NCBI GenBank assembly: GCA_963668025.2
Contig: CAXXTH010000007.1
Span: 1 to 22,422, forward strand
Direction: 5' to 3'
DNA: 22,422 nucleotides
DNA from: Candidatus Hydrogenedentota bacterium
GTDB lineage: Bacteria; Hydrogenedentota; Hydrogenedentia; Hydrogenedentales; SLHB01
Below the pieces are notes generated by a model. It was given only the letters and a program-made list of their open reading frames with translations. It searched no databases and was not told where the DNA came from. Both the position numbers and the translations under genes were made by a program. Numbering within the stretch: position 1 is the stretch's first letter; every line of letters begins with the position of its first letter. Positions 242-20,673 of the stretch are shown here, piece after piece.

Positions 242-1488
242 TCATTGTCTTCCCAATACCACTAATTTGCCTTGGCCCGGTTCGAGATGCACCTCCCATA
301 CATAGACATCATCGGCCGCATCCGTCTTCGAAGCCGCCAGACGCTCCATCTTCATGGCGTTCCGGGCGGCCCGTGTTCGGGTTGAGCACTCTCACGTGTT
401 TCTTTTGCGAAACGCGATCTGTGATTCGCACGGTTTGCTCAGGCTCCGGTTCACGAACATGGCGTATTTTTTGCCCTTGTCCGATTCAAAGCATCCGATT
501 ACGAACTCTCCACCCTTCATCCACGCCACAGGCCCATTCTGGCCGGAAGAGCGGTTGCAGCAGGCGGCACGGGCGCGGTGTGATAGACTGCCGTCGATTT
601 CAATTGGCCTAAGATCGGCGCAAGCGCATTCACTTCCGCATTGATGCGCTTCGCATAATAATACTTGCTCGTAGGAGTGCCGTCCCACCGCACCAGCGCT
701 TCTCCCCATCCTTCATAATCCTTCGATCCTGGCGGCGGGGTCATATAGGTAAAATAGGCCAAGCTTTCGCCCCGTACGCAAGCGACGTAAACACCTGCCA
801 CCGCAAATCCGCTTCGGAGGGATCCCGGTAGTCAAAGTGCGGGATCGACAGGAAAATATTGTTGAAAGGTATATTATACTTCAAGGCCTGTCGGCGGATG
901 CTCTCAAGATTAATCGAAGTAGCCATCGGTGGCGTCGTGGTCCTTAAAAAGAACATACCGGTCGTAACTGAGCAGATCGGGCTTATTTGTCTTGATATAA
1001 TGCTCGACGTTTTCTTCATAAGGCCCCCATGCGAAACTGGGCAGCAGATTGGTGAAAACCGGATGCGCGCCATCCGCTTCCGCACCGCCGCCGCACTCCC
1101 GGCCAGCCAAGTTTCAATCGCATCGGCTGCCATTGGCTCATCCCACAGCAGATATCCCCACAGCGCGGGATGGTTTTTCACCGCCTTCACCCGTTCAATC
1201 AGTTGGGTGTAGTCTGAATAGTTTTCCTTATTATAGAGGCCTTGTAGGCTAATAATTGCCTTGATGCCGCTCTCTTGCAGAGGTCCAAGCCTTGAAGCAT
1301 GTTTTCGAGTTTCTGCTCGCCAATAACCGTAGTATTGAATCCCGCTGCTGCAATGCCATCGAACACTTCCTTGCGAAATTGCTCCTGCCCTGGCCCCCAC
1401 CAGTGCCATATCAGAATGTCCTGGGCCATCGCCTGCCCCCAGAAAACAACAAGCATACGGTGGCTACAACGCCTATTCGTTTCAGCAT
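242..1488 (-). CDS. Secreted glycoside hydrolase-like (TIM-barrel, clan GH-A-like) protein, broken by about 8 frameshifts (probably sequencing errors)
   Basis: Stitched across frames: ATG 1488 with SD AAAGGA; signal peptide MLKRIGVVATVCL..AMAQ; then IAAAGFN, HPALWGYLLWDEP, PVFTNLLP, PDLLSYDRY, LRWQVFTSLAYGAK, LAYFTY, YAMFVNR, ending LEPGQGKLVVLGRQ* (TGA 242-244). ORF-track fragments 1199-1456, 741-1409, 910-1110, 517-801 and 392-709 are pieces of this one gene. Confidence 0.75.
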
Positions 1489-1678
1489 GACCAGATCCTT
1501 TCCTTTGCTTTCATGGAGCATCCCATGCAAACGATAAAATCGTATCATTTTAGGTGGATGAAGCGAAAGCAGCTTTTTCAGGACAGGATTGAGTTGCAGT
1601 ATAGGGAAGATTCCCAAACTACACGGCAATGGACAGCTTCTGTCGAAATGCGTTCTTTTCAGCCCATTTGATGCAACA

Positions 1679-1758
1679 AATTTCTCTGTGCTCTCTGTGT
1701 CTCTGTGGTGAAAATATACGATTATTCACCACAGAGACACAGAGAGCACAGAGAAATT
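1679..1758. repeat. Perfect 34-bp inverted repeat made of 8-9-bp units; possible terminator or processing hairpin downstream of pyrC
   Basis: 1679-1712 AATTTCTCTGTGCTCTCTGTGTCTCTGTGGTGAA is the exact reverse complement of 1725-1758; 12-nt loop. Confidence 0.9.
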
Positions 1759-1790
1759 CGATTGGTTATGGCTCACGCAAAGCATGGCCC

Positions 1791-3071
1791 TCACGCGCAG
1801 CGCCACACACTCGTCCATCGCACAGCGTGGCCTTGACTTGGCCCCGCACGTGCATGTCCGCGAATGGCGTATTGCGGCCCTTGCTCGCGATTGTTCCGGA
1901 TCTATGGTCCATTGGCTTCGGGATCGAATACGGTAATATCTGCTGGGCCGCCCTCCACGAGTCGTCCGGCGGGCAGATCGAGAATTTTCGCAGGCGACCA
2001 TGTCATCAGTTCGACCGCCCGTTCGAGCGAAAGGGCATGTGTTTCCACCAGCCCTGTGATAGCCAGCGCCAGCGCCGTTTCAAGCCCTACGATGCCGAAA
2101 GGCGCAAGCTGGAATTCCACGTCTTTCTCGGTGGGCGTATGGGGCGCGTGATCCGTGGCGATGCAATCAATCGTGCCATCGGCAAGGCCGTGTTTGATGG
2201 CTTCCGTGTCGGCGAAAGAACGCAGAGGCGGATTCATTTTTGCGTTAGGGCCATAAACGCTCCACGGCGTCATCCGTCAGCGTCCAGTAATGCGGGGCGG
2301 TTTCACACGTCACGGCAAGGCCCTTGTGGCCTTGGCCTTGGCGCGAGCGCACAATATACGACGCCTTCAGCCGTGCTCACATGGCAGATATGCACTTTTG
2401 CGCCCGCCAATTCCGCCAAGCGAATCACCCGGTCGATGGCGATTTCTTCCATGGCCTTGGGCATGCCAGGCAGGCCCAGCCGCGTCGAATGGAAGCCTTC
2501 ATTCATGGCCCCGCCATCCATGAGCGAGGCGTCTTCCGCATGGGCCAGATAGGTGAAGCCCACCATATGGGCATATTCGAGCACCCGGCGCATGACCCAA
2601 CTGCTGGCGATGTCGCTGCCGTCGTCCGTGACAGCCACCGCGCCCGTCGCCTTAAGGGCGGCCATTTCCGTCATCTCAGCACCCGCCCGGCCTTTGGTCG
2701 CGGCGGCGGCGGGCCACACCTTGATGCAGGCCGTTTCGCGGGCGCGCCGGTTATGCAGTTCGACCATGCCGCCGTTGTCGATGGGCGGGCTTGTATTGGG
2801 CATGACGACCACGGAAGTATATCCGCCGCGTGCAGCGGCGCGGCTGCCCGTGGCGATGGTTTCTTTCGACTCGAAACCCGGTTCCCGCAAATGGACATGG
2901 ATATCCACGAAACCGGGGCATACGACACAGCCCTCCGCATCGAGCACATTATCGCCTTCGAGGCCCGCGCCGATTTGGGCGATCACCCCCCATATCCACG
3001 AGCACATCGCGCACTTCGTTCAAGCCCGAGGCCGGGTCAATCACATGTCCGTTTTTAATGACGAGGCTCAT
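1791..3071 (-). CDS. pyrC: Dihydroorotase (type I), with several frameshifts in this assembly
   Basis: ATG 3071 [13 protein letters not shown]; motifs [69 protein letters not shown]. Indels near 2990 (G6 run), 2250-2360, 1890-1915 and about 1805. Stop is at 1791 or 1766 depending on the last indel. Confidence 0.92.
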
Positions 3072-3094
3072 CCCGTACTCCGCTGTCTGGCCGG

Positions 3095-4084
3095 TTACGC
3101 CGGTTCAAAAGTTGGTTTGTTGACCAGGAGATGCATGATGGCCATACGCACGGCCACGCCGTTGGTTACTTGTTCGAGGATGACATTGCGCGGCCCATCC
3201 GCCACCTCGGCGGACAGCTCGAAATCGCGGTTGATCGGGCCGGGGTGCATGACAATGGCATGCTTCGGCGCAAACTCGAGCGACTCGTTATCAATGCGGA
3301 ACAGCCGCACATATTCGCCGATGCTCGGAAACAGGCACTTTTGCTGCCGTTCAAGCTGGATGCGCAGCGAATAGATCACATCGGCTCCCGAGATAGCCTC
3401 GCGCAAATCCGTTGTCACGTCGCATCCCATTTCCGAGATACGCGCTGGCAGCAGGGTGCTGGGCCCGCACACCACGACCCGCGCGCCTAACTTGCGCAGG
3501 CACCAGATGTTGCTCCGCGCCACACGGCTGTGGGCGATATCGCCCACGATGGCGACGCGCATGCCATCCAGCGTGGCTTTCGGATCATGCCGGGTGCGGC
3601 GGACGTGTTGCAGCATCGTAAATGCATCAAGAAGGGCCTGGGTGGGATGCTCGTGCGCGCCGTCGCCCGCGTTGATGATCCCCGAGGGATGCCGTTCCGC
3701 CAATAGCTTCGCTGCTCCCGCGTAGCTGTGGCGAATCACTACGATGTCGCTGTGCATCGCCTCGATGTTGTAGAGCGTATCATGCAGCGTTTCACCCTTC
3801 TTAGCGCTCGATACGGCCACATTCATGGTCAGCGTGTCGGCGCTCAAGCGTTTGGCCGCCAGCTCGAACGAGGTGCGCGTCCGCGTGCTGGGCTCGAAAA
3901 ACCAATTCACCACCAAGCGGCCTTGCAGGAGGGGCACCTTCTTGATGCCGCTTTCCCGCTTCGATACCGCCACAAACTGGGGAGCCGTATCGAGAATCAT
4001 CTCGATTTCGCCGCGGGAAAGATCCTCGATGCCTACGAGATCCTTGCGGGTCCACACCCGTGTCAACGGCTGCGTGCCAGCCAT
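3095..4084 (-). CDS. pyrB: Aspartate carbamoyltransferase catalytic subunit
   Basis: FFEPSTRTRTSFE, KKGETL, NAGDGAHEHPTQALLD, GDIAHSRVARSN, LRIQLER, MHPGPINR. Start placed at ATG 4084 (SD GGAAGGGAG) rather than at 4177, which lies inside pyrR. Confidence 0.97.
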   Translation of the reverse strand: MAGTQPLTRVWTRKDLVGIEDLSRGEIEMILDTAPQFVAVSKRESGIKKVPLLQGRLVVNWFFEPSTRTRTSFELAAKRLSADTLTMNVAVSSAKKGETLHDTLYNIEAMHSDIVVIRHSYAGAAKLLAERHPSGIINAGDGAHEHPTQALLDAFTMLQHVRRTRHDPKATLDGMRVAIVGDIAHSRVARSNIWCLRKLGARVVVCGPSTLLPARISEMGCDVTTDLREAISGADVIYSLRIQLERQQKCLFPSIGEYVRLFRIDNESLEFAPKHAIVMHPGPINRDFELSAEVADGPRNVILEQVTNGVAVRMAIMHLLVNKPTFEPA

Positions 4085-4103
4085 CTGCGCGCTCCCTTCC
4101 GTG

Positions 4104-4679
4104 CTATGAGGCCGAAGCGGCCCGTTCCAGCAACACCATATCCTCCCCATCGGTCTCGATAAGCCGCACCGAGACATGGTCCGCCTCGGATGTGGCCAGC
4201 GGCCAGCCCAGGAAATCCGCTTGAATCGGCAATTCCCGCAGCCCTCGATCCACCAAGCAGGCTAACCGGATGCGGGCAGGCCGGCCATAATCCATGATCT
4301 CGTCCAAGGCGGCACGCGTGGTGCGGCCCGTAGACAATACGTCATCCACAATCACGACGGTTTTGCCATCTACGTCGAAATCGAAGTGGGTGCCCGTGCC
4401 GCCCGTAAAACCTGCCGTGCGGCCTGAACGCAAGTCGTCCCGGTACAAACGCGTCGAAAGCGAGCCTACCGCAGGGGCCACTCCGGCCATTTCGCCGATA
4501 TGCGCCGCAATACGGTCGGCCAGAGGCCGCCCCCGGCTCAATACGCCCAGCAGCACCAGCGCATGGATATCCGCTGTCGAGGCGGCAATCTCCTGGGCCA
4601 GCCTGCGAATGGCGCCAGCCACGGCTGTTGCATCCATCACTATGGTATGTTCCGGCTCTTTGTGGAGTGTATCATCCAT
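4104..4679 (-). CDS. pyrR: PyrR-family pyrimidine regulator / uracil phosphoribosyltransferase
   Basis: LYRDDL, PRPP loop VVIVDDVLSTGRT, GRP, LVDRGLRELPIQAD; sits directly upstream of pyrB. Start at 4679 (or 4637); the ORF-track start at 4736 lies in the leader terminator. Confidence 0.93.
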   Translation of the reverse strand: MDDTLHKEPEHTIVMDATAVAGAIRRLAQEIAASTADIHALVLLGVLSRGRPLADRIAAHIGEMAGVAPAVGSLSTRLYRDDLRSGRTAGFTGGTGTHFDFDVDGKTVVIVDDVLSTGRTTRAALDEIMDYGRPARIRLACLVDRGLRELPIQADFLGWPLATSEADHVSVRLIETDGEDMVLLERAASAS

Positions 4680-4719
4680 CGCTATATAGCCCGCCCGCGC
4701 GGCCAAATGCCCACCGCTC

Positions 4720-4755
4720 AAAAAAAACGCCCTCATCGCATCGCGCCATGAGGAC
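4720..4755 (-). terminator. Intrinsic terminator in the pyr operon leader (putative attenuator)
   Basis: Minus strand GUCCUCAU-ggcgcgaugcg-AUGAGGGC-G-UUUUUUUU, between the promoter and the pyrR start. Confidence 0.75.
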
Positions 4756-4904: not shown

Positions 4905-4933
4905 TTGAATCCAGAGCGCGATTTATCTATACT
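4905..4933 (+). promoter_or_regulatory. sigma70-type promoter of tRNA-His
   Basis: TTGAAT-N17-TATACT, ending 47 bp upstream of the tRNA, with an AT-rich stretch upstream. Confidence 0.7.
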
Positions 4934-4980
4934 ATCTCCCGACCCGGGCTTGGTTTTCCAAGCTTGCCGGGCGCACATGG

Positions 4981-5057
4981 GCCGGGATAGCTCAGTTGGT
5001 TAGAGCGCTGGATTGTGGATCCAGAGGTCGACAGTTCAACCCTGTCTCCCGGTACCA
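4981..5057 (+). tRNA. tRNA-His (GTG) with encoded CCA
   Basis: Acceptor GCCGGGA/TCCCGGT, D-arm GCTC..GAGC, anticodon arm CTGGA-TTGTGGA-TCCAG, T-arm GACAG-TTCAACC-CTGTC, then A-CCA. Confidence 0.97.
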
Positions 5058-5079
5058 TCCCTCGATGGCGCTCGATGAT

Positions 5080-6048
5080 ATGAAAATATTGGTAACGGGA
5101 GCCGGTGGTTTTATCGGCCATCATCTGGTTATAGCGCTCAAATCGTGCGGGCATTGGGTGCGGGGTGTGGATATCAAACATCCCGAATTCGAAGCCAGCG
5201 CCGCCGATGAATTCCATATCCTAGACCTGCGTAAAGAAGAAAATGCCCTCCGCGCGACGGAATCCATCGAACAAGCCTACCATCTCGCCGCGAATATGGG
5301 CGGCATCGGATTTATCGAACAGAACAAGGGCGTCATAGTCCGCGACAATACCTTGATCAACATTCACACCATTGAAGCGGCGCGTGTGAATGGCGTGGGC
5401 CGTTTTCTCTACACCTCCAGCGCCTGCATTTATCCCGGATATAAGCAGAAAGAGGCGGCTCTAACCCCCTTGAAAGAATCCGACGCCTATCCCGCCGACG
5501 CCGAAGATGGGTATGGCTGGGAAAAGCTCTACATGGAGCGCACCTGCCGCCATTACCGCGAAGATTTCGGGCTCGATACGCGGACTGTGCGTTTTCATAA
5601 TATATTCGGCCCTCTCGGCACATATGACGGCGGGCGTGAGAAAGCCCCAGCGGCGCTTTGCCGCAAAATTGCACTCGTCGCAGATGGCGGCGAGATCGAA
5701 CTGTGGGGCGATGGCGAACAAACACGCAGTTTTTGTTATATCGATGATTGCGTGGCGGGCCTGATGAAGCTTATGAATTCGGATTTTCATGATCCGCTTA
5801 ATCTTGGCCAGGACCGCATGGTCACGATCAATGAACTCGCCTATATGGTGGCCAGTGCGGCGGGCAAACGCATCCACATCCGGCATGAAATGGACCGCCC
5901 GCTGGGCGTGCGAGGCCGCAATAGCGATAATACGCTGTTGCGGGAAATCCTTGGATGGGAGCCCGCGATCTCGCTCGAGGAGGGCATCCGCCGCACCTAC
6001 GAATGGATTCACGGGCAGCTTATGCTCACGGGCAAGCTTACGGCCTAA
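5080..6048 (+). CDS. NAD-dependent epimerase/dehydratase, GDP-mannose 3,5-epimerase (GME)-like
   Basis: MKILVTGAGGFIG Rossmann motif, LAANMGGIGFI, SSACIYP, YGWEK (YxxxK), RFHNIFGP, EKAPAALCRK, GVRGRNSDN. Start at 5080 or 5065. Confidence 0.9.
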   Translation: MKILVTGAGGFIGHHLVIALKSCGHWVRGVDIKHPEFEASAADEFHILDLRKEENALRATESIEQAYHLAANMGGIGFIEQNKGVIVRDNTLINIHTIEAARVNGVGRFLYTSSACIYPGYKQKEAALTPLKESDAYPADAEDGYGWEKLYMERTCRHYREDFGLDTRTVRFHNIFGPLGTYDGGREKAPAALCRKIALVADGGEIELWGDGEQTRSFCYIDDCVAGLMKLMNSDFHDPLNLGQDRMVTINELAYMVASAAGKRIHIRHEMDRPLGVRGRNSDNTLLREILGWEPAISLEEGIRRTYEWIHGQLMLTGKLTA

Positions 6049-11742: not shown

Positions 11743-12198
11743 CTACATGCCGCTGCGTTTTCGGTAATCGAGGCTTCTGGAAACCCGGATGGGCTGTTCT
11801 TCACTCACATTCAGGGCCCGCCCGAGTTCAACTTCCCGCTTTTTAGGAAGGCGGATCTTGGATTGCGCTTTTGCTACTTCCTGGCTGAGTTGATTCAGGC
11901 AGGATTCACACAGCTTTTTGCTTGAACTGATAGCCGGAGCCCCACAACGTCCGCAACGCACTCTTTCGCCCTGGTCCATACTCTGAATGCGCCCGGAGGC
12001 TATGCAACGAAGCACGCAACTCAATTCGATGTCAGTCTTTTCAGAAAGTTGTTCAGCGGTCAACTGCGGACTCTCTTGGAGGATATCCCGCAAGCGCTCG
12101 TAATCTTCTTCTTCTTGTGGCAAACACTGAGGACAGATCACCAGATCTGACATCTTGGTGAACATCTTTTTGCAGCGATCGCAGGTTGCCAATGGCAT
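11743..12198 (-). CDS. YvyF-like (TIGR03826-type) protein: Zn-ribbon, helical/HTH-like region, second Zn-ribbon
   Basis: CDRC..CPQC..EEEDYERLRDIL..LSEKTDI..GRI..CGRCG..LCESC matches the pattern of B. subtilis YvyF as I recall it; SD GGAGG upstream. Confidence 0.8.
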   Translation of the reverse strand: MPLATCDRCKKMFTKMSDLVICPQCLPQEEEDYERLRDILQESPQLTAEQLSEKTDIELSCVLRCIASGRIQSMDQGERVRCGRCGAPAISSSKKLCESCLNQLSQEVAKAQSKIRLPKKREVELGRALNVSEEQPIRVSRSLDYRKRSGM

Positions 12199-12204
12199 GG
12201 CGTC

Positions 12205-12990
12205 TTAACCTCCTTCGCTTGGCTCCCATTGCGTGGAAACCGAGTTATAATTTATTTGTATATTGCCCTTAATACCCGCTTTTAGTATTTTACCATTAGT
12301 TGACACCACAACGCCTACTTGCATGCAATTAATGGGCTGCCCGTTTCCATCCCGGGGCGCTCTCTGTTTTCCTGGATACGTCACTCGAAGCCATGTACGC
12401 CCGCCAACAGGCTGTTCGTAATCTTCCTGCGGCACGGTATCTTGGCCGATTATTTCAAATGTAGCGCCCGGTGCAAATATGTATGAATCATCCAATCCTT
12501 CTTGTGATAATTGATTCTCTTCAATATCCCATTCCGTGATTCGCTTGTATAAAGCTTCTTTGGCGGCTTCATACACCGCTAAATCACCTGACTCCGATTT
12601 TACCTGGGTCAAGCGTTCATTCATCCATTGTGTGAGGCGTATTACTTCCTCGCAATCACGATTTTGCACCGCTAAGGCATATTGCATGGCCAGCGCATTA
12701 AGCGATGCATCTAGGCCCTTCTTCGTAGCTCCCTTGTGGGCATCGTCCGTTTTTTTGCCGGCCATCAACTGTAAAAGGGGCGCTTGTGCGAACGGCGAAA
12801 CTTTTTTATCTGGCTCAGGCGTCCCAGTCAATGGAAAGCTTGCACGCACCAGCATCCATCCGGTAGCAGCGCCTCCCGTTATTCCAGCAGCCAAAACGAT
12901 GAGGGCAATCCATATGCCTACTCTCATTCGGCGTGCGAGATTGCCATTATATGCGTCATGCTCACGTCTGTTATTCACTTGTTGCTTCAC
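12205..12990 (-). CDS. Hypothetical single-pass membrane protein
   Basis: 261-aa open frame with a TM segment (VGIWIALIVLAAGITGGAATGWMLV); ends 6 bp before the next gene; more AT-rich than its neighbours; start uncertain. Confidence 0.75.
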   Translation of the reverse strand: MKQQVNNRREHDAYNGNLARRMRVGIWIALIVLAAGITGGAATGWMLVRASFPLTGTPEPDKKVSPFAQAPLLQLMAGKKTDDAHKGATKKGLDASLNALAMQYALAVQNRDCEEVIRLTQWMNERLTQVKSESGDLAVYEAAKEALYKRITEWDIEENQLSQEGLDDSYIFAPGATFEIIGQDTVPQEDYEQPVGGRTWLRVTYPGKQRAPRDGNGQPINCMQVGVVVSTNGKILKAGIKGNIQINYNSVSTQWEPSEGG

Positions 12991-15395: not shown

Positions 15396-17838
15396 CACGC
15401 TGTTTGTCAGCGTGTTTCTTCTCAGTGTGCTGGTTTTTATTGGATTAGCCGCGCTGGCAGGGTATTGGCTGGGCAAAGCCCCAGAGCCGAGCGGCGAGCA
15501 AGAAGCTGCGCTTGCGGAAAACGCTGGTGCAGAGGGCGCTCCGTTGAAATATGTTGAAGAGACGCCTATATATTGTTGCATCAATACAGCTCCCGGCGCT
15601 GATATCGCTGCCGCAGCCCTTGAGATCAAGATGGCCGCGGAGAATGGCGTCCATCAATATGTGCTCTCCGTTGCGCCATCATGGCCTGGCCAGGAAGAAA
15701 CCGCCGGGTTTCTCAGTACTCCGGTCGAAACCGTCTTACAGGCTGATCCCGCGGCGCATATTCTGCTTCAGGTTGAGCTCGATCCTCCGGCGGCTTGGCT
15801 TTCACAGCATCCCGCCGCCGCTGTATCCGTGGATGGGGCGTTACAGACAAGTCCATGCGTGGCCTCGCCCGAATGGTTCGATGGCGCGAAAGAGGTTCTG
15901 GAGCAACTCATCAGCCAAGTAAAAGCCCATGAGTATCCCATCACGGGATATATCCCAGAGTGCCTGCGCAATGGAAGATGGCTTCGGGAAGGCGGATATG
16001 ATACTTCGGAGGCGAATCTGTCCGCTTTTCGCGCCTGGCTTAAAACACGATACGGCAGTGAAGATGCATTGCGCGCCGCTTGGGGGAATGAGCGCGCTTC
16101 ATTCGGCGAGGTGCAGCTCCCAAAACAACTGGATTCGGCCGATACCGGGAATGTTTTTTACCGTACGCCGGAAGAACAGTCCAATATCGATTTTCTCACG
16201 TTTAATTCGGATAACACGGTGAGTGTGCTCATCGCGTTGGCGGCGCATATCAGGCAATGCGCAGGGCCTGATACGCGCGTGTTGCTGCCCTATGGCGATT
16301 CCTACGAATCATTGTCCAATTTTACCACCCATCTGGCCCTTGGCCGCGTGCTGGATGGGCCAGTGGATGGATTCGCCAGCCCGGTTTCCTACCATGATCG
16401 CGGCGTGGGCGGCGTGGGCGGTTTCATGGGGCCCGTGGATTCCGCGCGCATGCACGGGAAGCGATGGTATTTGGTGGATGACACGCGCACGGGTATTAGC
16501 CGCGATGCCGCAAGCGGCGAGGCCGCCCATTTGGCTGGCCTTCGTATTGAAGACGTCTATAATGTACAGAAGCGCAATTTCGCCGCAGCCCTCGGGCATG
16601 GCCTCGGCTTGTTCTTTTGCGACCCAGAGGGGAAAGGGGCCCTTCTGGATGCGCCGATGTGGAAGCAGTTTGGCGGCATGTTCACGGCTTATGCGGATTT
16701 CTGGCGCGAAATAAACGCCAGCGGGCAGAATACAGCCGGGCAAGCGCCCGTTGAACTGAATCCGGCGTCACGCGTTTCGGTATGCGTGGTGATTGACGAA
16801 GCCAGCCGTTTCATACAACGTTGCGATGAAGCCTTGAATGGGCGTCTTCTTCTCGAGGGCCGTGACAGCGCTCTAATGAGCGGCGCACCCGCGGAATTTT
16901 GTTTACTGCAGGATGTCCTGGATGGGCGGGCCGCTCCGGCCTCCGTATATCTGTTTTTAAATCTGTTCCGCCTCGACGAAGGCTCCCGCCAGCGTTTGCA
17001 TGAGCTCCTTGCGAAAGGCAACGCCACCGCGATTTGGATGTATGCACCAGGTTATTTCGCGCAAACAGCTTCCGTGGACAACATCGCGGCTACCACCCTT
17101 CTGAATGTGAAAGCCTTTGACGCGCCTGAACCGTGCGGTTCCTCGTATAGCCTTGATGCGAAACTCATCCGCTCGGGGGAAGCGTTTGGCGAGGAAATGA
17201 AACTTGCGCCTCTCTTTTACATTGACTCCGAAACAGATCCGAACTTGGCTGTTTTGGCTCAATATCGTTCATCAAAAAAAACGAGCGCCGCCATCAAGTT
17301 TCTCGAACAAGGCTGGGCCTCGGTCTATGTGGCCGAACCGGCCATGACACCGGAATTGCTTCGGCAGATTCTGTTGATTATCGAAGAGCACTCCTATGTG
17401 AAGGGAGCAGTGGGCCAAGCACAGGATGTGTCTTATTTCGGTCCCAATTTAATTGCCATTCATGCGAAAGGGGCGGGCGATTGGGAGCGGGTTATCGAGT
17501 TCAAGGGATTCAATGATGTAAAGGATGTTCTGGACGAGGGGATCGGGTGGCCGCATAAGCAGGGCGTCAGCTTTTCGATGCGGTTCGGCGAAACTCGAAT
17601 TCTGAAACTGACGCCTTCTCCTGTTGATGTGGAAGAAGCCGGGACCGCGCCTGGCGAAGCGGGCACGGAAACTGCCTCAGGCGAGGCCGCCCCGGAAACA
17701 GCGCCTATTGTCGAGACGCCGCCATCACCCGAACAACCAGTAGCTCCGGAAACGCCTGCTGAACCTGCGCCTGCTGAGCCTGATGCTGGAGCGGAGCCGG
17801 AGCCGTCTTCGGGCCTGACGCCGATTAACCCGCCGTAA
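15373..17838 (+). CDS. Membrane-anchored GH42/beta-galactosidase-like protein with a Pro/Glu/Ala-rich C-terminal tail
   Basis: N-terminal TM; AFRAWLKTRYGSEDALRAAWG, ASPVSYHDRG, HGKRWYLVDDTRT; trimerisation-like region (VVIDE, YLFLN, IWMYAPGY); low-complexity tail of about 70 aa. Confidence 0.75.
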   Translation: MLGRGLSSTLFVSVFLLSVLVFIGLAALAGYWLGKAPEPSGEQEAALAENAGAEGAPLKYVEETPIYCCINTAPGADIAAAALEIKMAAENGVHQYVLSVAPSWPGQEETAGFLSTPVETVLQADPAAHILLQVELDPPAAWLSQHPAAAVSVDGALQTSPCVASPEWFDGAKEVLEQLISQVKAHEYPITGYIPECLRNGRWLREGGYDTSEANLSAFRAWLKTRYGSEDALRAAWGNERASFGEVQLPKQLDSADTGNVFYRTPEEQSNIDFLTFNSDNTVSVLIALAAHIRQCAGPDTRVLLPYGDSYESLSNFTTHLALGRVLDGPVDGFASPVSYHDRGVGGVGGFMGPVDSARMHGKRWYLVDDTRTGISRDAASGEAAHLAGLRIEDVYNVQKRNFAAALGHGLGLFFCDPEGKGALLDAPMWKQFGGMFTAYADFWREINASGQNTAGQAPVELNPASRVSVCVVIDEASRFIQRCDEALNGRLLLEGRDSALMSGAPAEFCLLQDVLDGRAAPASVYLFLNLFRLDEGSRQRLHELLAKGNATAIWMYAPGYFAQTASVDNIAATTLLNVKAFDAPEPCGSSYSLDAKLIRSGEAFGEEMKLAPLFYIDSETDPNLAVLAQYRSSKKTSAAIKFLEQGWASVYVAEPAMTPELLRQILLIIEEHSYVKGAVGQAQDVSYFGPNLIAIHAKGAGDWERVIEFKGFNDVKDVLDEGIGWPHKQGVSFSMRFGETRILKLTPSPVDVEEAGTAPGEAGTETASGEAAPETAPIVETPPSPEQPVAPETPAEPAPAEPDAGAEPEPSSGLTPINPP

Positions 17839-20673
17839 TGAGGACTGGCGCTCCCTCGGGAATCCGGGAAAAGGCAGTTAGCACATCATTGTTCCGAAGG
17901 CGGATGCAGCCATGGCTGGACGGCGTGCCGATGTTTTCCTCGCCATTGGTGCCGTGGATATAGATAAACCGTTCCGCCGAGTCCACATCGCCGCCTTTGT
18001 TCAATCCGGGTTCTTCCCCATCAAGCAGTAGCACCCGAGTCAGCACGAGATCTTCTTTTGCGTCCATGCCGGGTTGCCAGCGTTCGGCGGTGGGCGCGCG
18101 GGAACGGAAAACCTGCCCCCACGGCAGTCCGTCTCCGAGTTTTTTGCTTACTACATGCCATCCCTCCGGGGTCATCATGCTGCCCATCTTGGAGCCAACG
18201 CCCTTGGCGGCTGTTGAACAGGGCGCTTCCCACACGATATTACGGCCTTTTAGCAGCCGCATTTTTTGCTCCTTCACCGACACCCATACGCCCTCGGCTT
18301 GGCCTACGCGCGATTCCCATTGCTTTGCAGCGAGCAGAGCGGCTTGCCCTTCCGTAAGGCGTCCAAAACCATTCTCCACCCGCTGCTCGATGTGAACCGG
18401 AGTTTGCGCTGGAGCGGCGTTATCCACCGGCACGCCGGGCGGCACTATCAGCGTATATCCTTTATCTTGCGCATATTGTAGCGCCACCTTGCCCACGGGT
18501 GTGGGGATGTCTAGTTCCATCCGCGTCAGGCTTGTGGGCATATGCGGCTCAAACCGGATGGCTTTCCATCCTGGCTTGGCTGGCGTAAGGCCAGCCACTT
18601 GTTCCGCGATGAGATAAATGGGGCTGCTGCTCCAGGGATGGCACCAGCTTGTATTCTGTTTTTGGTCTGGCCCCCAGACTTCCATGCATGCCGTCGCTCC
18701 ATGGCGTATCATTTCCTGCCAGGAATGCTCGTCTTCCGACATTAGGAGGTTATATGCCAGCTCCGGCTCACCCGCCGCATAACAGGCTTCGATAACAAAA
18801 GGAGCTATATACACGCCGCAATTGAGGCGTTTTTCTCGAATGAGGGCAATAATTTGGGGCTTATTTTCGTCAGGAACCATGCCGAAAGCCAGGGGCAAGG
18901 CGTTTGTGTGTAACGAGCTGTGCTTCGAGCCTGGCGCGTCTACAAACAGGCCCGAGGCGGGATCGAGCAGCCGGGCGACAAACGCTTGGCGTACCCGTTC
19001 CGCGCGGGCCTCATAGTCCTCCGCGCCATCCAATTCGACGGCGCGGCAGATTTCTGCAGCCGCTTTGAGGGAGGCATAATACCATGCGTTGAGGACGGCG
19101 TTTGCCCCAGGCGTGCCGAAATCATATCCATCGCGCGTTTCCGGCGGCCAATCCACGAGTATTGTCTTCCCTCGAAAATCCGAGAGCAGGCCATCTTCAT
19201 CCTCGAAGGCGGCAAAGTGAGAGTAGAGCTTGTCAAAGGCTTCATCCGCCATGCGGTAGGTGAAAAAACGGTCATCCGTATAGAGGTAATAATTGCGCAG
19301 CAGCAAGGTCCATTGCAGGGAGTATTCAGCGAATTCTTGCATGTAGCTGCATGGAGCTACGCCCATGATGCCGGGATCGAGCCGTTGGGAAAGCTGAAAA
19401 TCCCGGATTGCCTTTCGCGATAATGAAGGATCGCCAGTGAGATACAGATGCGAATGGCTGGCGATAAGGGTGTCGCCGAGATATTGGCCTTTCTCTCGGG
19501 TCGGGCAATCGACGAATCCCCCTTGCGCGCCGAGCATGACGCCATTGCGGCATAGCGCCCAAATGGATTCAAGGATAGGTTCGGACGCGTTGAATTTGCT
19601 GGCTTCCGGGTTGAAGGGATAATGCCGCACCATGGCCCATACTTCCGGTTTCGCGGGCGCGTTCAGGATTTCGATGTACCGGAATCCCTTGTAATCGAAA
19701 AACTCGATTGTGTCATCATTTCCGGACAAGATAGGGAATTCTTGATAGGTGCAGGTTGCCCGGAGCTGGTAGCGCACCGTATCTGGACCTTCAAGCTCTT
19801 CGCCATGGCGGACCTCGAGCGCATGGCCTTCGGGGCCTTTAATGCGTATCCGGGTATGGCCGGTGAGTTCCGTGCCGAAATCATAGAAATAATGGCCTGG
19901 TTCTTTCTCTTTCACGAGGACGGGATCGGCGCGCCAAATCTGGAGCGGTTGGGTATCTGCTTTGACAAAGCCATGATCTTGCCAGCCGGTGAGCGGCGCA
20001 GGCCAGGAAGAATCATCAAATCCATATTCCCGCCAGCCTAATGGCTCCATGCGCATATCGATGTTTTCAAGAAATTGCGTTTCGTAGCCTATGGTATCTC
20101 CCGTGGGAAAAGCTTCCGAGCGCAGGCAGCGCCATGCGGGGTCCGTTGATATATCCAGTGAGCTTCCGTCTTCGAAGGTGATAGTGAGCAGCGCCACAAA
20201 ACCCGACCGGTTATCCGCACTGTTCCAGACCCGGTTACGCAAGCCTTGATAATAGACATGGCTGGCAAGGCAATTCCGCCTGCTTGGAGATAGGATGTCA
20301 CATCGATTTCGTAATATGGATACGCGAAAGGATACCCCGGCTCGGGGCCTTGCACGGCATATTGGCCGTTGATGTACAGGATGCAATAATCATCCGCGGA
20401 AAAACGCAGTATGGCGGATGCCGGTTTTTTATCGAGCATAAATTCATGGCGGAAGTAGGTGTGTACGTTGCGCGGCCCTGCCGGGGCAGTTTGTTCTGTA
20501 TTCGGATACGTGATGGTTTCCACACCGGCAAACAAGGGATCACGCAGCCATTGCGCTTCGCCAAAAGCCTGGCCTGCCGCTTTTGATGCAGTCAGAAAAG
20601 CCAGCCCCATTACTGCAATACAAACGGCATAGAACAACGTACGATTCCTGTCGTGTTTGTCACAACGTATCAT
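17825..20673 (-). CDS. Secreted alpha-L-rhamnosidase (GH78) fused to a C-terminal L,D-transpeptidase (YkuD) domain; one frameshift near 20277
   Basis: Signal peptide; YFRHEF, SADDY, YINGQ..GP (ORF 20089-20673) continuing as NCLASHVYYQG in ORF 17825-20386. GH78 motifs DFGTE, DCPTREKGQYLGD, VDWP, GATACMEVW, SWCHPWSS. YkuD motifs TPEG, IYIHGT, SHGCIRL. Confidence 0.88.

What the first reader, a model, noticed from the sequence alone, without database searches (positions are those of the whole stretch)
4980..5057. Non-canonical tRNA-His with G1:U72 and discriminator A73
Seen: the acceptor end is TCCCGGT-A-CCA, so U72 (5053) and A73 (5054). Established: bacterial tRNA-His nearly always uses G-1:C73 as its identity element. 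The known exception is an alphaproteobacterial clade (for example Caulobacter and rhizobia) that lacks G-1, uses U72/A73 plus the anticodon, and has a divergent HisRS. The gene content here (pyrR-led operon, GerMN, YvyF-like) does not look alphaproteobacterial. A genomic G is present at -1 (4980) but would face A73. Inference: horizontal transfer or independent origin of an orthogonal tRNA-His/HisRS pair.
Basis: partly seen in the sequence, partly recalled or inferred. Interest (0 to 1): 0.75.

Follow-up and report, generated by a model that had tools for sequence, protein, structure and literature searches.

The report
G-1-less histidine tRNA outside Alphaproteobacteria
This is the genome's only histidine tRNA, and it and its charging enzyme are of the unusual type so far described only in one group of Alphaproteobacteria, yet here they sit in a Hydrogenedentota bacterium and are shared by almost all of its order.

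Summary
Window 4981-5057 (+) is a tRNA-His(GUG) with G1:U72, A73, encoded CCA and a genomic G at -1. It is the only tRNA-His found in the 6.1-Mb assembly.

The host is Hydrogenedentota, not Alphaproteobacteria.

The trait is not a local oddity. Of 121 genomes of the host's order with a readable tRNA-His 3' end, 113 have U72/A73, 5 have C72/A73, 1 has U72/G73 and 2 are canonical. Two deeper lineages of the phylum are also canonical. Base -1 is G in only 24 of 112 genes.

The single HisRS carries the marks of the alphaproteobacterial G-1-independent enzyme:
- Gly in place of the motif-2 Gln.
- An acidic patch in place of the G-1 pocket.
- An insert of about 18 residues in the anticodon-binding domain.

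It falls in one clade with the alphaproteobacterial enzymes and with enzymes from Planctomycetota, Acidobacteriota, Zixibacteria and Ignavibacteriota. In 24 such genomes the tRNA-His read had A73, with U72 in all 24 (one has U1 in place of G1).

No Thg1 was found. The papers I could read name the alphaproteobacterial clade as the only bacterial exception.

Verdict: a real new member of a known kind, inherited across the order rather than recently transferred. The mature 5' end and the charging rules remain untested.

The parts
4981..5057 (+). tRNA-His(GUG) gene, 77 nt, the only tRNA-His in the assembly. It is of the G-1-less type: G1:U72, C3:G70, a 9-nt D loop (AGUUGGUUA, with U20a), G37, A73 and encoded CCA.
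   Evidence: The feature list of the alphaproteobacterial type comes from Yuan et al. 2011 (PMC3064791, whole text read).
4980..4980 (+). Genomic G at position -1, facing A73. It is most likely removed with the 5' leader.
   Evidence: Among 112 U72/A73 tRNA-His genes of the phylum, base -1 is T in 78, G in 24 and C in 10, so it is not conserved.
5053..5054 (+). U72 and A73, the acceptor-end identity positions of the G-1-less type.
   Evidence: U72/A73 is found in 113 of 121 readable genomes of the order. In this genome the combination G1:U72 with A73 is unique to tRNA-His among 48 tRNAs.
5055..5057 (+). Genome-encoded CCA end.
   Evidence: 44 of the 48 predicted tRNAs of the genome are followed by CCA.
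4905..4933 (+). Promoter-like site (TTGAAT, 17 nt, TATACT) 48 nt upstream of the tRNA. This is a consensus match only.
   Evidence: 9 of 12 matches; 2 sites found in the region against 0.6 expected from shuffles.
5065..6048 (+). NAD-dependent epimerase/dehydratase gene that starts 7 nt after the tRNA. No terminator-like site was found between them, so co-transcription is possible. It is context only and not part of the pair.
   Evidence: (PF01370, E 6.8e-44).
3095..4736 (-). Divergently oriented pyrR-like (4104-4736) and pyrB-like (3095-4177) genes upstream of the tRNA. Context only.
   Evidence: PF00156; PF02729 and PF00185.

Best explanation
The gene encodes the cell's single histidine tRNA, of the G-1-independent type.

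Inferred mechanism:
- The precursor is cut by RNase P at the normal +1 site, because a G at -1 cannot pair with A73. The mature tRNA therefore starts at G1 and has an ordinary 7-bp acceptor stem that ends in a G1:U72 wobble pair.
- It is charged by the genome's single HisRS, a 480-aa protein on another contig (G000:C10:158728-160026). This enzyme has lost the features that read G-1:C73.
- By analogy with the tested Caulobacter enzyme, it recognises the GUG anticodon plus U72, and to a lesser degree A73.

The tRNA and the enzyme are a co-adapted pair of the same family as the pair of the alphaproteobacterial RRCH clade. In this lineage the pair is old. It is fixed in nearly the whole main order of Hydrogenedentota, while two deeper lineages of the phylum keep the canonical pair.

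Shown here: the sequence features, their distribution, the covariation of tRNA and enzyme, and the clade membership of the enzyme. Inferred only: the mature 5' end and the recognition rules.
For: tRNA features. A73, G1:U72, C3:G70, a 9-nt D loop with U20a and G37 are all present. These are the features listed for the alphaproteobacterial type in PMC3064791. Positions 8-48 match the Rhodobacter capsulatus tRNA-His at 41 of 41 bases. Against the canonical tRNA-His of the same phylum (G002) the figure is 30 of 41.

Lineage survey. I searched 135 species genomes of the phylum.
- Of the 133 in the same order, 121 gave a readable 3' end: 113 U72/A73, 5 C72/A73, 1 U72/G73 and 2 canonical (G096, G098).
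- The two genomes outside the order (G001, G002) are canonical, with g at -1, C72 and C73.
- Base -1 among the 112 full-length U72/A73 genes is T in 78, G in 24 and C in 10.

No G-1 addition enzyme. The Thg1 family (PF04446) gave no match in the own genome, while the control rang in Methanosarcina.

Enzyme.
- There is one HisRS above the family cut-off.
- Its motif-2 loop reads KP-G-PGR, where canonical enzymes of the phylum read RP-Q-AGR.
- None of the 120 best homologs has Gln at that position.
- It has 34-43 residues in query positions 436-472 (37 in this enzyme), against 17-27 in Gln-type enzymes. The insert is similar in sequence to that of alphaproteobacterial, planctomycete and acidobacterial enzymes.
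- An acidic SPEGE stands where canonical enzymes have a Gly-rich, Arg-ending stretch. Tian et al. 2015 (PMC4357726, passages read) report aspartates at this spot in the Caulobacter enzyme and say they block the G-1 pocket.

Covariation inside the phylum.
- G094 has the G-1-less tRNA and a Gly loop.
- G096 and G098 have a canonical tRNA and a Gln-loop HisRS, with the tRNA gene directly 3' of hisS.
- G001 and G002 have a canonical tRNA and an E. coli-like HisRS with Gln.

Trees.
- All 48 rows with a non-Gln loop and the insert form one clade, SH-aLRT 99.
- With the loop and insert columns removed, the same clade has ultrafast bootstrap 89 and SH-aLRT 65.

Other phyla. I searched 26 genomes that encode such a HisRS. 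A tRNA-His was found in 24, and in all 24 it has U72 and A73.
Against: - No experiment or read data shows the mature 5' end. This genome does have a G at -1, so retention of that G cannot be excluded from sequence alone.
- Contigs from an RNA library held a near-identical tRNA (2 differences), but contigs cannot show ends.
- RNase P RNA was not found in the own assembly. The protein subunit gene is present, and 20 of 20 relatives searched have the RNA.
- The recognition rules are carried over from one tested enzyme (Caulobacter) that is only about 40% identical.
- When the trait columns are removed, support for a single enzyme clade is moderate (89/65).
- Twelve of the 135 genomes gave no tRNA-His with the pattern search. 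Their completeness is 63-94%.
Confidence: 0.85

Rival explanations
1. Eukaryote-like identity. The mature tRNA carries G-1 opposite A73, either because the encoded G at 4980 is kept after processing or because it is added afterwards, and the HisRS still reads G-1.
For: There is a genomic G at -1 in this genome. The HisRS belongs to the broad class that also holds human cytoplasmic HisRS: PDB search gives 3net 1.2e-68, human 4g84 3.1e-60 and E. coli 9.1e-39. Caenorhabditis elegans keeps an encoded G-1 opposite A73 (PMC4338351, passages read).
Against: Base -1 is G in only 24 of 112 related genes and T in 78. No Thg1 was found. The enzyme lacks the motif-2 Gln, and an acidic patch stands where the G-1 pocket should be. 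Eukaryotic tRNA-His is not described with U72.
Confidence: 0.06
2. Independent, convergent origin. Hydrogenedentota evolved a G-1-less tRNA-His and a matching HisRS on their own, and the likeness to the alphaproteobacterial pair is convergence.
For: With the loop and insert columns removed, support for one enzyme clade is only 89/65. Two Gly-loop enzymes without the insert (P0163, P0251) lie outside the clade, so the loop change alone has arisen more than once. The order of the deep branches inside the clade is unresolved.
Against: The insert of about 18 residues lies at the same place and is similar in sequence across phyla. It is absent from all 20 Gln-type rows. The clade was recovered in all three trees. 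The tRNAs share U20a, C3:G70 and G37 beyond the identity positions.
Confidence: 0.08
3. Recent horizontal transfer of an alphaproteobacterial tRNA-His gene, or a mis-binned contig, so that the tRNA does not belong to this organism's translation system.
For: The core of the tRNA (positions 8-48) is identical to that of Rhodobacter capsulatus.
Against: It is the only tRNA-His in the genome. The contig's G+C content (0.555) matches the rest of the genome. The same gene type is in 113 related genomes, including single-contig assemblies such as G034 and G069. The matching HisRS sits on a 1.42-Mb contig and clusters with Hydrogenedentota enzymes.
Confidence: 0.01

Closest known systems
G-1-less tRNA-His with G-1-independent HisRS of the alphaproteobacterial RRCH/RCS clade (Caulobacter crescentus pair; Yuan et al. 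2011, PMC3064791)
   Same: tRNA: A73, G1:U72, C3:G70, U20a in a 9-nt D loop, G37, no conserved G at -1. Enzyme: no Gln in the motif-2 loop (KPGPGR in both), an acidic patch at the G-1 pocket, an insert in the anticodon-binding domain, and the same enzyme clade.
   Different: The host phylum differs. The enzymes are only about 40% identical. The acidic patch reads SPEGE here and DDDEQ in most alphaproteobacterial rows. The alphaproteobacterial enzymes nest in a sub-clade with Planctomycetota, Blastocatellia and Ca. Lernaella enzymes (100/99), while the Hydrogenedentota enzymes form a separate deep branch. Nothing about the pair here has been tested at the bench.
Canonical bacterial tRNA-His (encoded G-1 paired with C73, kept by an unusual RNase P cut) with its HisRS
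   Same: GUG anticodon, encoded CCA and the class IIa HisRS fold family. This canonical pair is still used by two deep lineages of the same phylum (G001, G002) and by two species inside the order (G096, G098).
   Different: Here the tRNA has A73 instead of C73 and U72 instead of C72, so no 8th base pair can form. The enzyme has Gly where the canonical one has Gln.
Eukaryotic cytosolic tRNA-His (A73, with G-1 added by Thg1)
   Same: The A73 discriminator. The HisRS is nearer by sequence to human cytoplasmic HisRS than to E. coli HisRS.
   Different: No Thg1 was found in the genome. The tRNA has U72. The enzyme lacks the G-1 reading features.
G-1-independent HisRS of Trypanosoma brucei and Acanthamoeba castellanii (Rao and Jackman 2015, PMC4338351)
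   Same: A tRNA-His without G-1 is charged by a non-canonical HisRS that leans on the anticodon, according to the passages I read.
   Different: The paper says the eukaryotic cases arose separately. I made no sequence comparison with them beyond the PDB search, where the Trypanosoma HisRS entries 3hri and 3hrk score 7.8e-44 and 1.2e-41.

Membership tests
Bacterial G-1-less tRNA-His / G-1-independent HisRS pair (alphaproteobacterial type) | Discriminator A73 | tested here: met
   Window 5054 = A.
Bacterial G-1-less tRNA-His / G-1-independent HisRS pair (alphaproteobacterial type) | G1:U72 wobble pair at the top of the acceptor stem | tested here: met
   Window 4981 = G and 5053 = T. The pair is conserved in 113 of 121 readable genomes of the order.
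Bacterial G-1-less tRNA-His / G-1-independent HisRS pair (alphaproteobacterial type) | C3:G70, a 9-nt D loop with U20a, and G37 | tested here: met
   Read. C3 and the D loop are 90% or more conserved in alignment A1. The feature list comes from PMC3064791.
Bacterial G-1-less tRNA-His / G-1-independent HisRS pair (alphaproteobacterial type) | No conserved encoded G at -1 | tested here: met
   This genome has G at -1, but across 112 related genes the base is T in 78, G in 24 and C in 10.
Bacterial G-1-less tRNA-His / G-1-independent HisRS pair (alphaproteobacterial type) | HisRS motif-2 (IIb) loop lacks the Gln that goes with G-1:C73 (Gly in the RRCH clade) | tested here: met
   The loop reads KPGPGR here and RPQAGR in the canonical G001 and G002. 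None of the 120 closest homologs has Gln there. The Gly-versus-Gln rule comes from PMC3937112 (passages read).
Bacterial G-1-less tRNA-His / G-1-independent HisRS pair (alphaproteobacterial type) | Insert in the C-terminal anticodon-binding domain | tested here: met
   37 residues here in query positions 436-472 (34-43 across the clade), against 17-27 in Gln-type rows. The insert aligns with the alphaproteobacterial insert. The insert is described in PMC3064791 and PMC3245924.
Bacterial G-1-less tRNA-His / G-1-independent HisRS pair (alphaproteobacterial type) | The G-1 pocket dipeptide (Gly-Gly) is replaced by acidic residues | tested here: met
   SPEGE here, DDDEQ in alphaproteobacterial rows, and a Gly-rich, Arg-ending stretch (such as KGR or GGR) in canonical rows. 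The rule comes from PMC4357726. The alignment is by sequence only, not by structure.
Bacterial G-1-less tRNA-His / G-1-independent HisRS pair (alphaproteobacterial type) | The enzyme falls in one clade with the alphaproteobacterial G-1-independent HisRS | tested here: met
   A 48-row clade with SH-aLRT 99. The same clade has 89/65 when the trait columns are removed.
Bacterial G-1-less tRNA-His / G-1-independent HisRS pair (alphaproteobacterial type) | The mature tRNA starts at G1 (no G-1) | not testable with these tools
   Only contigs were available, and contigs cannot show RNA ends.
Bacterial G-1-less tRNA-His / G-1-independent HisRS pair (alphaproteobacterial type) | The enzyme charges G-1-less tRNA and depends on the anticodon and U72 | not testable with these tools
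   This is a biochemical property, known for Caulobacter only.
Canonical bacterial tRNA-His | Encoded G-1 paired with C73 | tested here: not met
   The discriminator is A73, and G at -1 cannot pair with it.
Eukaryote-type tRNA-His identity (A73 with G-1 added by Thg1) | A Thg1 guanylyltransferase is present | tested here: not met
   PF04446 gave no match at E up to 0.01 in the own genome, which is 93.75% complete. The control rang in Methanosarcina.

The most novel reading that the evidence does not exclude
The G-1-less tRNA-His/HisRS pair is not an alphaproteobacterial invention. On this reading it is one old, exchangeable two-gene unit that has replaced the canonical pair in lineages of at least six phyla: Hydrogenedentota, Planctomycetota, Acidobacteriota, Zixibacteria, Ignavibacteriota/Bacteroidota and Alphaproteobacteria.

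Three observations point that way:
- In some lineages the two genes are still adjacent, with tRNA-His directly 5' of hisS.
- The alphaproteobacterial RRCH clade looks like one recipient, nested among Planctomycetota-like and Lernaella-like enzymes.
- The swap can run backwards, as in two Hydrogenedentota species that now carry a canonical hisS-tRNA-His cassette.

If true, the statement in print that this trait arose only once, as an alphaproteobacterial synapomorphy, would fall.
Probability: 0.5. Interest if true: 0.72.

Novelty: new member of a known kind. Interest (0 to 1): 0.62.

Why it matters
G-1 on tRNA-His is treated as one of the most universal tRNA identity marks. The papers I could read say that a single alphaproteobacterial clade is the only bacterial exception:
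[quoted passage not shown] - The 2023 review PMC9976931 names only Alphaproteobacteria.

This window shows the same pair fixed in almost a whole order of another phylum. Following the enzyme showed it patchily in several more phyla.

This has four consequences:
- It weakens the use of the trait as a marker of alphaproteobacterial descent.
- It gives natural replicates for studying how an identity rule is swapped without killing the cell. These include a reversal inside one genus and cassettes in which tRNA and enzyme are adjacent.
- It enlarges the pool of HisRS/tRNA-His pairs that are candidates for orthogonality to E. coli in genetic-code engineering.
- tRNA-His genes of these phyla should not be annotated with a G-1.

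Tried and rejected
Model specificity. The covariance model R1, built from 81 Hydrogenedentota tRNA-His genes, was not specific. In 15 genomes its best hits were mostly tRNA-Met, tRNA-Phe and others. It did find the canonical tRNA-His of G002, G096 and G098. I then used a D-arm-to-anticodon pattern instead.

Genomes with no tRNA-His. Twelve genomes gave no pattern match: G085, G091, G119, G121, G126, G009, G033, G035, G038, G042, G060 and G080. These assemblies are 63-94% complete. For G009 the 3' part was read at a contig end. G012 is cut before position 72.

Second matches. The second matches in G018, G083 and G095 are the same gene cut at contig ends. The one in G023 gave no tRNA call.

Reads. 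Only contigs were on hand.
- They confirm the window's bases in run X1, which is probably the source.
- They cannot show the RNA's ends.
- The other runs (X2, X3, X22) mostly hold other organisms' tRNAs over the conserved core. I draw nothing from them about habitat or expression.

RNase P RNA. It was not found in the own assembly by the Rfam model or by BLAST with relatives' genes. I read this as an assembly gap, because rnpA is present and 20 of 20 relatives have the RNA.

A grouping to ignore. In one search I grouped rows by 'insert' with a threshold that was too strict. It mislabelled some rows as having no insert, including three alphaproteobacterial ones, so that table should be ignored. 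The residue counts are the data.

Literature.
- Ardell and Andersson 2006 (PMC1363771) and Wang et al. 2007 (PMC1855720) are not held. I know them only through citing papers and recall, so an early mention of non-alphaproteobacterial cases in them cannot be excluded.
- Searches that found no paper on G-1-less tRNA-His outside Alphaproteobacteria were.
- One search was useless, because 'g-1' matched 'per gram'.

I ran no structure or complex prediction, because the question did not hinge on one.
Full report
WHAT IS IN THE WINDOW

One search shows g at window 4980, then GCCGGGA (4981-4987), the body of a tRNA, TCCCGGT (5047-5053), A (5054) and CCA (5055-5057). ARAGORN calls one gene in the window, tRNA-His with anticodon GTG at 4981-5057. 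The Rfam tRNA model matches 4981-5054 at 69.6 bits, E 3.9e-15.

The tRNA also has C3:G70, a 9-nt D loop (AGUUGGUUA, that is, with U20a) and G37. Yuan et al. 2011 (PMC3064791, whole text read) list A73, G1-U72, a conserved C3 pair and the extra U20a as the marks of the G-1-less tRNA-His of some Alphaproteobacteria. They show for Caulobacter that the anticodon and U72, and less so A73, are the recognition elements, and that adding G-1 does not help.

The gene lies between a divergent pyrR-like/pyrB-like pair (4104-4736 and 3095-4177, minus strand) and an NAD-dependent epimerase gene that starts 7 nt after the tRNA. A promoter-like site lies 48 nt upstream. No terminator-like site follows the tRNA. 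These are consensus matches only.

IS IT THE CELL'S REAL tRNA-HIS?

The whole assembly (6.15 Mb, 24 contigs, 93.75% complete; the window is contig C7) has 48 predicted tRNA genes and one tmRNA. This is the only tRNA-His, and there is no second gene with C73.

Contigs of run X1, probably the source sample, cover the region with 0 differences.

Among the 48 tRNAs, the combination G1:U72 with A73 occurs only in tRNA-His. tRNA-Leu(CAA) has the very same acceptor stem and A73 but C72, so U72 is the only acceptor-end difference between the two.

WHO IS THE HOST?

The genome's HisRS (480 aa, G000:C10:158728-160026) has relatives at 65-74% identity. Where these are named, the names are Candidatus Hydrogenedentes/Hydrogenedentota. 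A genome of the same family code (G101 = G160) is labelled Candidatus Hydrogenedentota bacterium in its public record. The host is therefore not alphaproteobacterial.

HOW WIDE IS THE TRAIT IN THE HOST'S LINEAGE?

I searched all 135 species genomes held for the phylum, first with the tRNA and then with a D-arm-to-anticodon pattern. I read the genes with ARAGORN after fetching them.

- 123 genomes have a tRNA-His by the pattern.
- Of the 133 genomes in the same order as the window's genome, 121 gave a readable 3' end.
  - 113 have U72/A73.
  - 5 have C72/A73 (G026 and four species of one genus).
  - 1 has U72/G73.
  - 2 are canonical, with g at -1, C72 and C73 (G096 and G098, both of one genus).
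- The two genomes outside that order (G001, G002) are both canonical.
- Twelve genomes gave no match (63-94% complete), and one gene is cut before position 72.
- Base -1 among the 112 full-length U72/A73 genes is T in 78, G in 24 and C in 10.

So the G at 4980 is not a conserved feature.

THE ENZYME

Only one HisRS gene passes the family cut-off in the genome.

By sequence it is nearer to the HisRS of Nostoc (3net), an unnamed-organism entry (6nhi) and human cytoplasm than to those of E. coli or Thermus.

Its motif-2 loop reads WRADKP-G-PGRFRQF. The canonical enzymes of G001 and G002 read RP-Q-AGR at the same place. Amrine et al. 2014 (PMC3937112, passages read) give exactly this Gln-to-Gly change as the enzyme mark of the alphaproteobacterial RRCH clade. 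None of the 120 closest homologs has Gln there: 113 have Gly, 4 Ala and 2 Asp, and 1 could not be matched.

Two further marks are shared with the alphaproteobacterial enzymes.
- The first is an insert in the C-terminal anticodon-binding domain. There are 34-43 residues in query positions 436-472, against 17-27 in all 20 Gln-type rows. The sequence is alike across phyla. This insert is named in PMC3064791 and PMC3245924 as the likely anticodon reader.
- The second is an acidic stretch: SPEGE here and DDDEQ in most alphaproteobacterial rows, where canonical enzymes have a Gly-rich stretch ending in Arg. Tian et al. 2015 (PMC4357726, passages read) say that two aspartates at this spot block the G-1 pocket in the Caulobacter enzyme.

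No Thg1 was found in the genome.

COVARIATION INSIDE THE PHYLUM

This is the strongest internal test.

- G094 has the G-1-less tRNA and a Gly-loop enzyme.
- G096 and G098 are in the same genus but have a canonical tRNA. Each has a single HisRS with a Gln loop (RPQEGR), and in both the tRNA-His gene lies directly 3' of hisS on the same contig.
- G001 and G002 have a canonical tRNA and an E. coli-like HisRS with Gln.

tRNA type and enzyme type thus switch together. In one genus the switch went back to canonical, apparently as a two-gene unit.

RELATION TO THE ALPHAPROTEOBACTERIAL PAIR AND TO OTHER PHYLA

A search of 1.84 billion cluster representatives gave, after the Hydrogenedentota clusters, full-length matches at 40-45% identity. 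Where these carry names, they are Planctomycetota, Phycisphaerales, Candidatus Lernaella, Hyphomonadaceae and Pseudomonadota.

The best 80 come from the following groups:
- Planctomycetota.
- Acidobacteriota: Thermoanaerobaculia, Vicinamibacteria, Bryobacterales and Blastocatellia.
- Zixibacteria.
- Ignavibacteriota.
- A few MAGs labelled Bacteroidetes or Chitinophagales.
- Many Alphaproteobacteria.

I searched 26 of these genomes for tRNA-His. 24 gave one, and in all 24 it has U72 and A73. One Planctomycetaceae gene has U1 instead of G1. Several lack an encoded CCA. Two of the 26 turned out to be genomes already counted in the phylum survey. For a 9.1-Mb Bryobacterales chromosome and a 3.6-Mb Zixibacteria chromosome, enzyme and tRNA lie on the same replicon, so binning error is not the cause.

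In 8 of the 80 loci the tRNA-His gene lies directly 5' of hisS on the same strand; none of these 8 is alphaproteobacterial. The same arrangement occurs in 2 of 30 Hydrogenedentota loci.

In evenly drawn samples the trait is patchy.
- Acidobacteriota: 8 of 114 genomes with a match end in TA and 106 in CC. The 106 include the two unpublished genomes G184 and G209.
- Planctomycetota: 6 of 104 end in TA, 97 in CC and 1 in CA.

The trees agree.
- In a FastTree of 144 rows and an IQ-TREE quick tree of 71 rows, all 48 rows that have both a non-Gln loop and the insert form one clade, SH-aLRT 99.
- In a careful tree with the loop and insert columns removed, the clade stays, but with ultrafast bootstrap 89 and SH-aLRT 65.
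- Inside it, the Hydrogenedentota enzymes form their own branch (100/100).
- The nine alphaproteobacterial rows (100/95) nest within an 18-row group (100/99) with Planctomycetota, Phycisphaerae, Blastocatellia and Ca. Lernaella enzymes.
- The root was set on two Gln-type rows, so the direction of change is inferred rather than shown.

The window's tRNA matches that of Rhodobacter capsulatus at all 41 positions from 8 to 48, and the canonical tRNA of G002 at 30 of 41.

READING

The simplest account is that this is the G-1-independent system already known from Caulobacter, sitting in another phylum. There it was acquired or evolved before the main order radiated and has been inherited since.

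Recent transfer into this contig is excluded.

What remains inferred:
- that RNase P cuts at +1;
- that the mature tRNA lacks G-1;
- that the enzyme reads the anticodon and U72.

RNase P RNA was not found in this assembly. The protein subunit gene is present, and 20 of 20 relatives searched have the RNA. I take this as an assembly gap.

NOVELTY

Every paper I could read names the alphaproteobacterial clade as the only bacterial exception:
[quoted passage not shown] - The 2023 review PMC9976931.
- PMC7590224 and PMC5370408.

Searches that combined tRNAHis with Hydrogenedentes, Planctomycet- or Acidobacteri-, and HisRS with horizontal transfer, found nothing on this.

[quoted passage not shown] 2007) are not held, and supplements were closed. 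Prior mention therefore cannot be fully excluded.

I rate the finding as a new member of a known kind. The wider reading is that this is a multi-phylum, exchangeable pair, with Alphaproteobacteria as one recipient.

Noticed in passing
G096:C200:12760-14210 (L166, L138) and G098:C174:7047-8518 (L167, L128): Two Hydrogenedentota species of one genus carry a canonical tRNA-His (g at -1, C72, C73) placed about 115-140 nt 3' of a Gln-loop hisS. Three sister species have the G-1-less pair. This looks like a replacement of the whole pair by a foreign two-gene cassette.
   Followed up: partly
L169, L170, L172, L173, L179, L182, L183, L229; L024 (G082), L027 (G094): The G-1-less tRNA-His gene lies directly 5' of hisS on the same strand in 8 of 80 loci from other phyla and in 2 of 30 Hydrogenedentota loci. 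One Thermoanaerobaculia locus (L172) has two tandem tRNA-His copies before hisS. Such linkage would let the pair move as a unit.
   Followed up: partly
G000:C17 tRNA-Leu(caa), 951509-951595: This tRNA-Leu has the same acceptor stem as tRNA-His (GCCGGGA/TCCCGG) and the same A73, but C72 instead of U72. The single base 72, together with the anticodon and the long variable arm, separates the two tRNAs at the acceptor end.
   Followed up: no
G000:C8 tRNA-Glu(ctc), 92535-92610: tRNA-Glu(CUC) also has a G1:U72 pair (with G73), while tRNA-Glu(UUC) has G1:C72. Unusual tRNA-Glu base pairs were reported for the alphaproteobacterial RRCH clade, according to PMC3937112.
   Followed up: no
G000, whole assembly: No bacterial type-A RNase P RNA gene was found in the own assembly by the Rfam model or by BLAST with relatives' genes. 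rnpA is present at C23:443479-443796, and 20 of 20 relatives searched have the RNA. This is probably an assembly gap.
   Followed up: partly
G026; G009, G010, G011, G013 (one genus); G111: There are variants inside the order: C72/A73 in five genomes and U72/G73 in one. I did not look at their HisRS. They could show how tightly U72 and A73 are held.
   Followed up: no
L262 (G138, Planctomycetaceae MAG): This tRNA-His gene appears to have T at position 1 opposite T72 (a U1-U72 mismatch), with A73.
   Followed up: no
L236 (JAACEL010000191.1) = G153 = G093: This public MAG is labelled Nitrospiraceae bacterium. Yet it falls in the same family code as the window's genome, and its tRNA-His sits at the same contig coordinates as in G093. 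The public label looks wrong. L223, a MAG labelled Luminiphilus, carries a Rhodobacterales-like pair and may be mis-binned.
   Followed up: no
window 17825-20386 (-): A single 853-aa open frame combines alpha-L-rhamnosidase domains with a C-terminal YkuD L,D-transpeptidase domain. This is an unusual fusion.
   Followed up: no
window 741-1409 (-), 1629-3374 (+), 11743-12990 (-): Several long open frames (222, 307, 273, 151 and 261 aa) have no Pfam match at E up to 1e-5.
   Followed up: no
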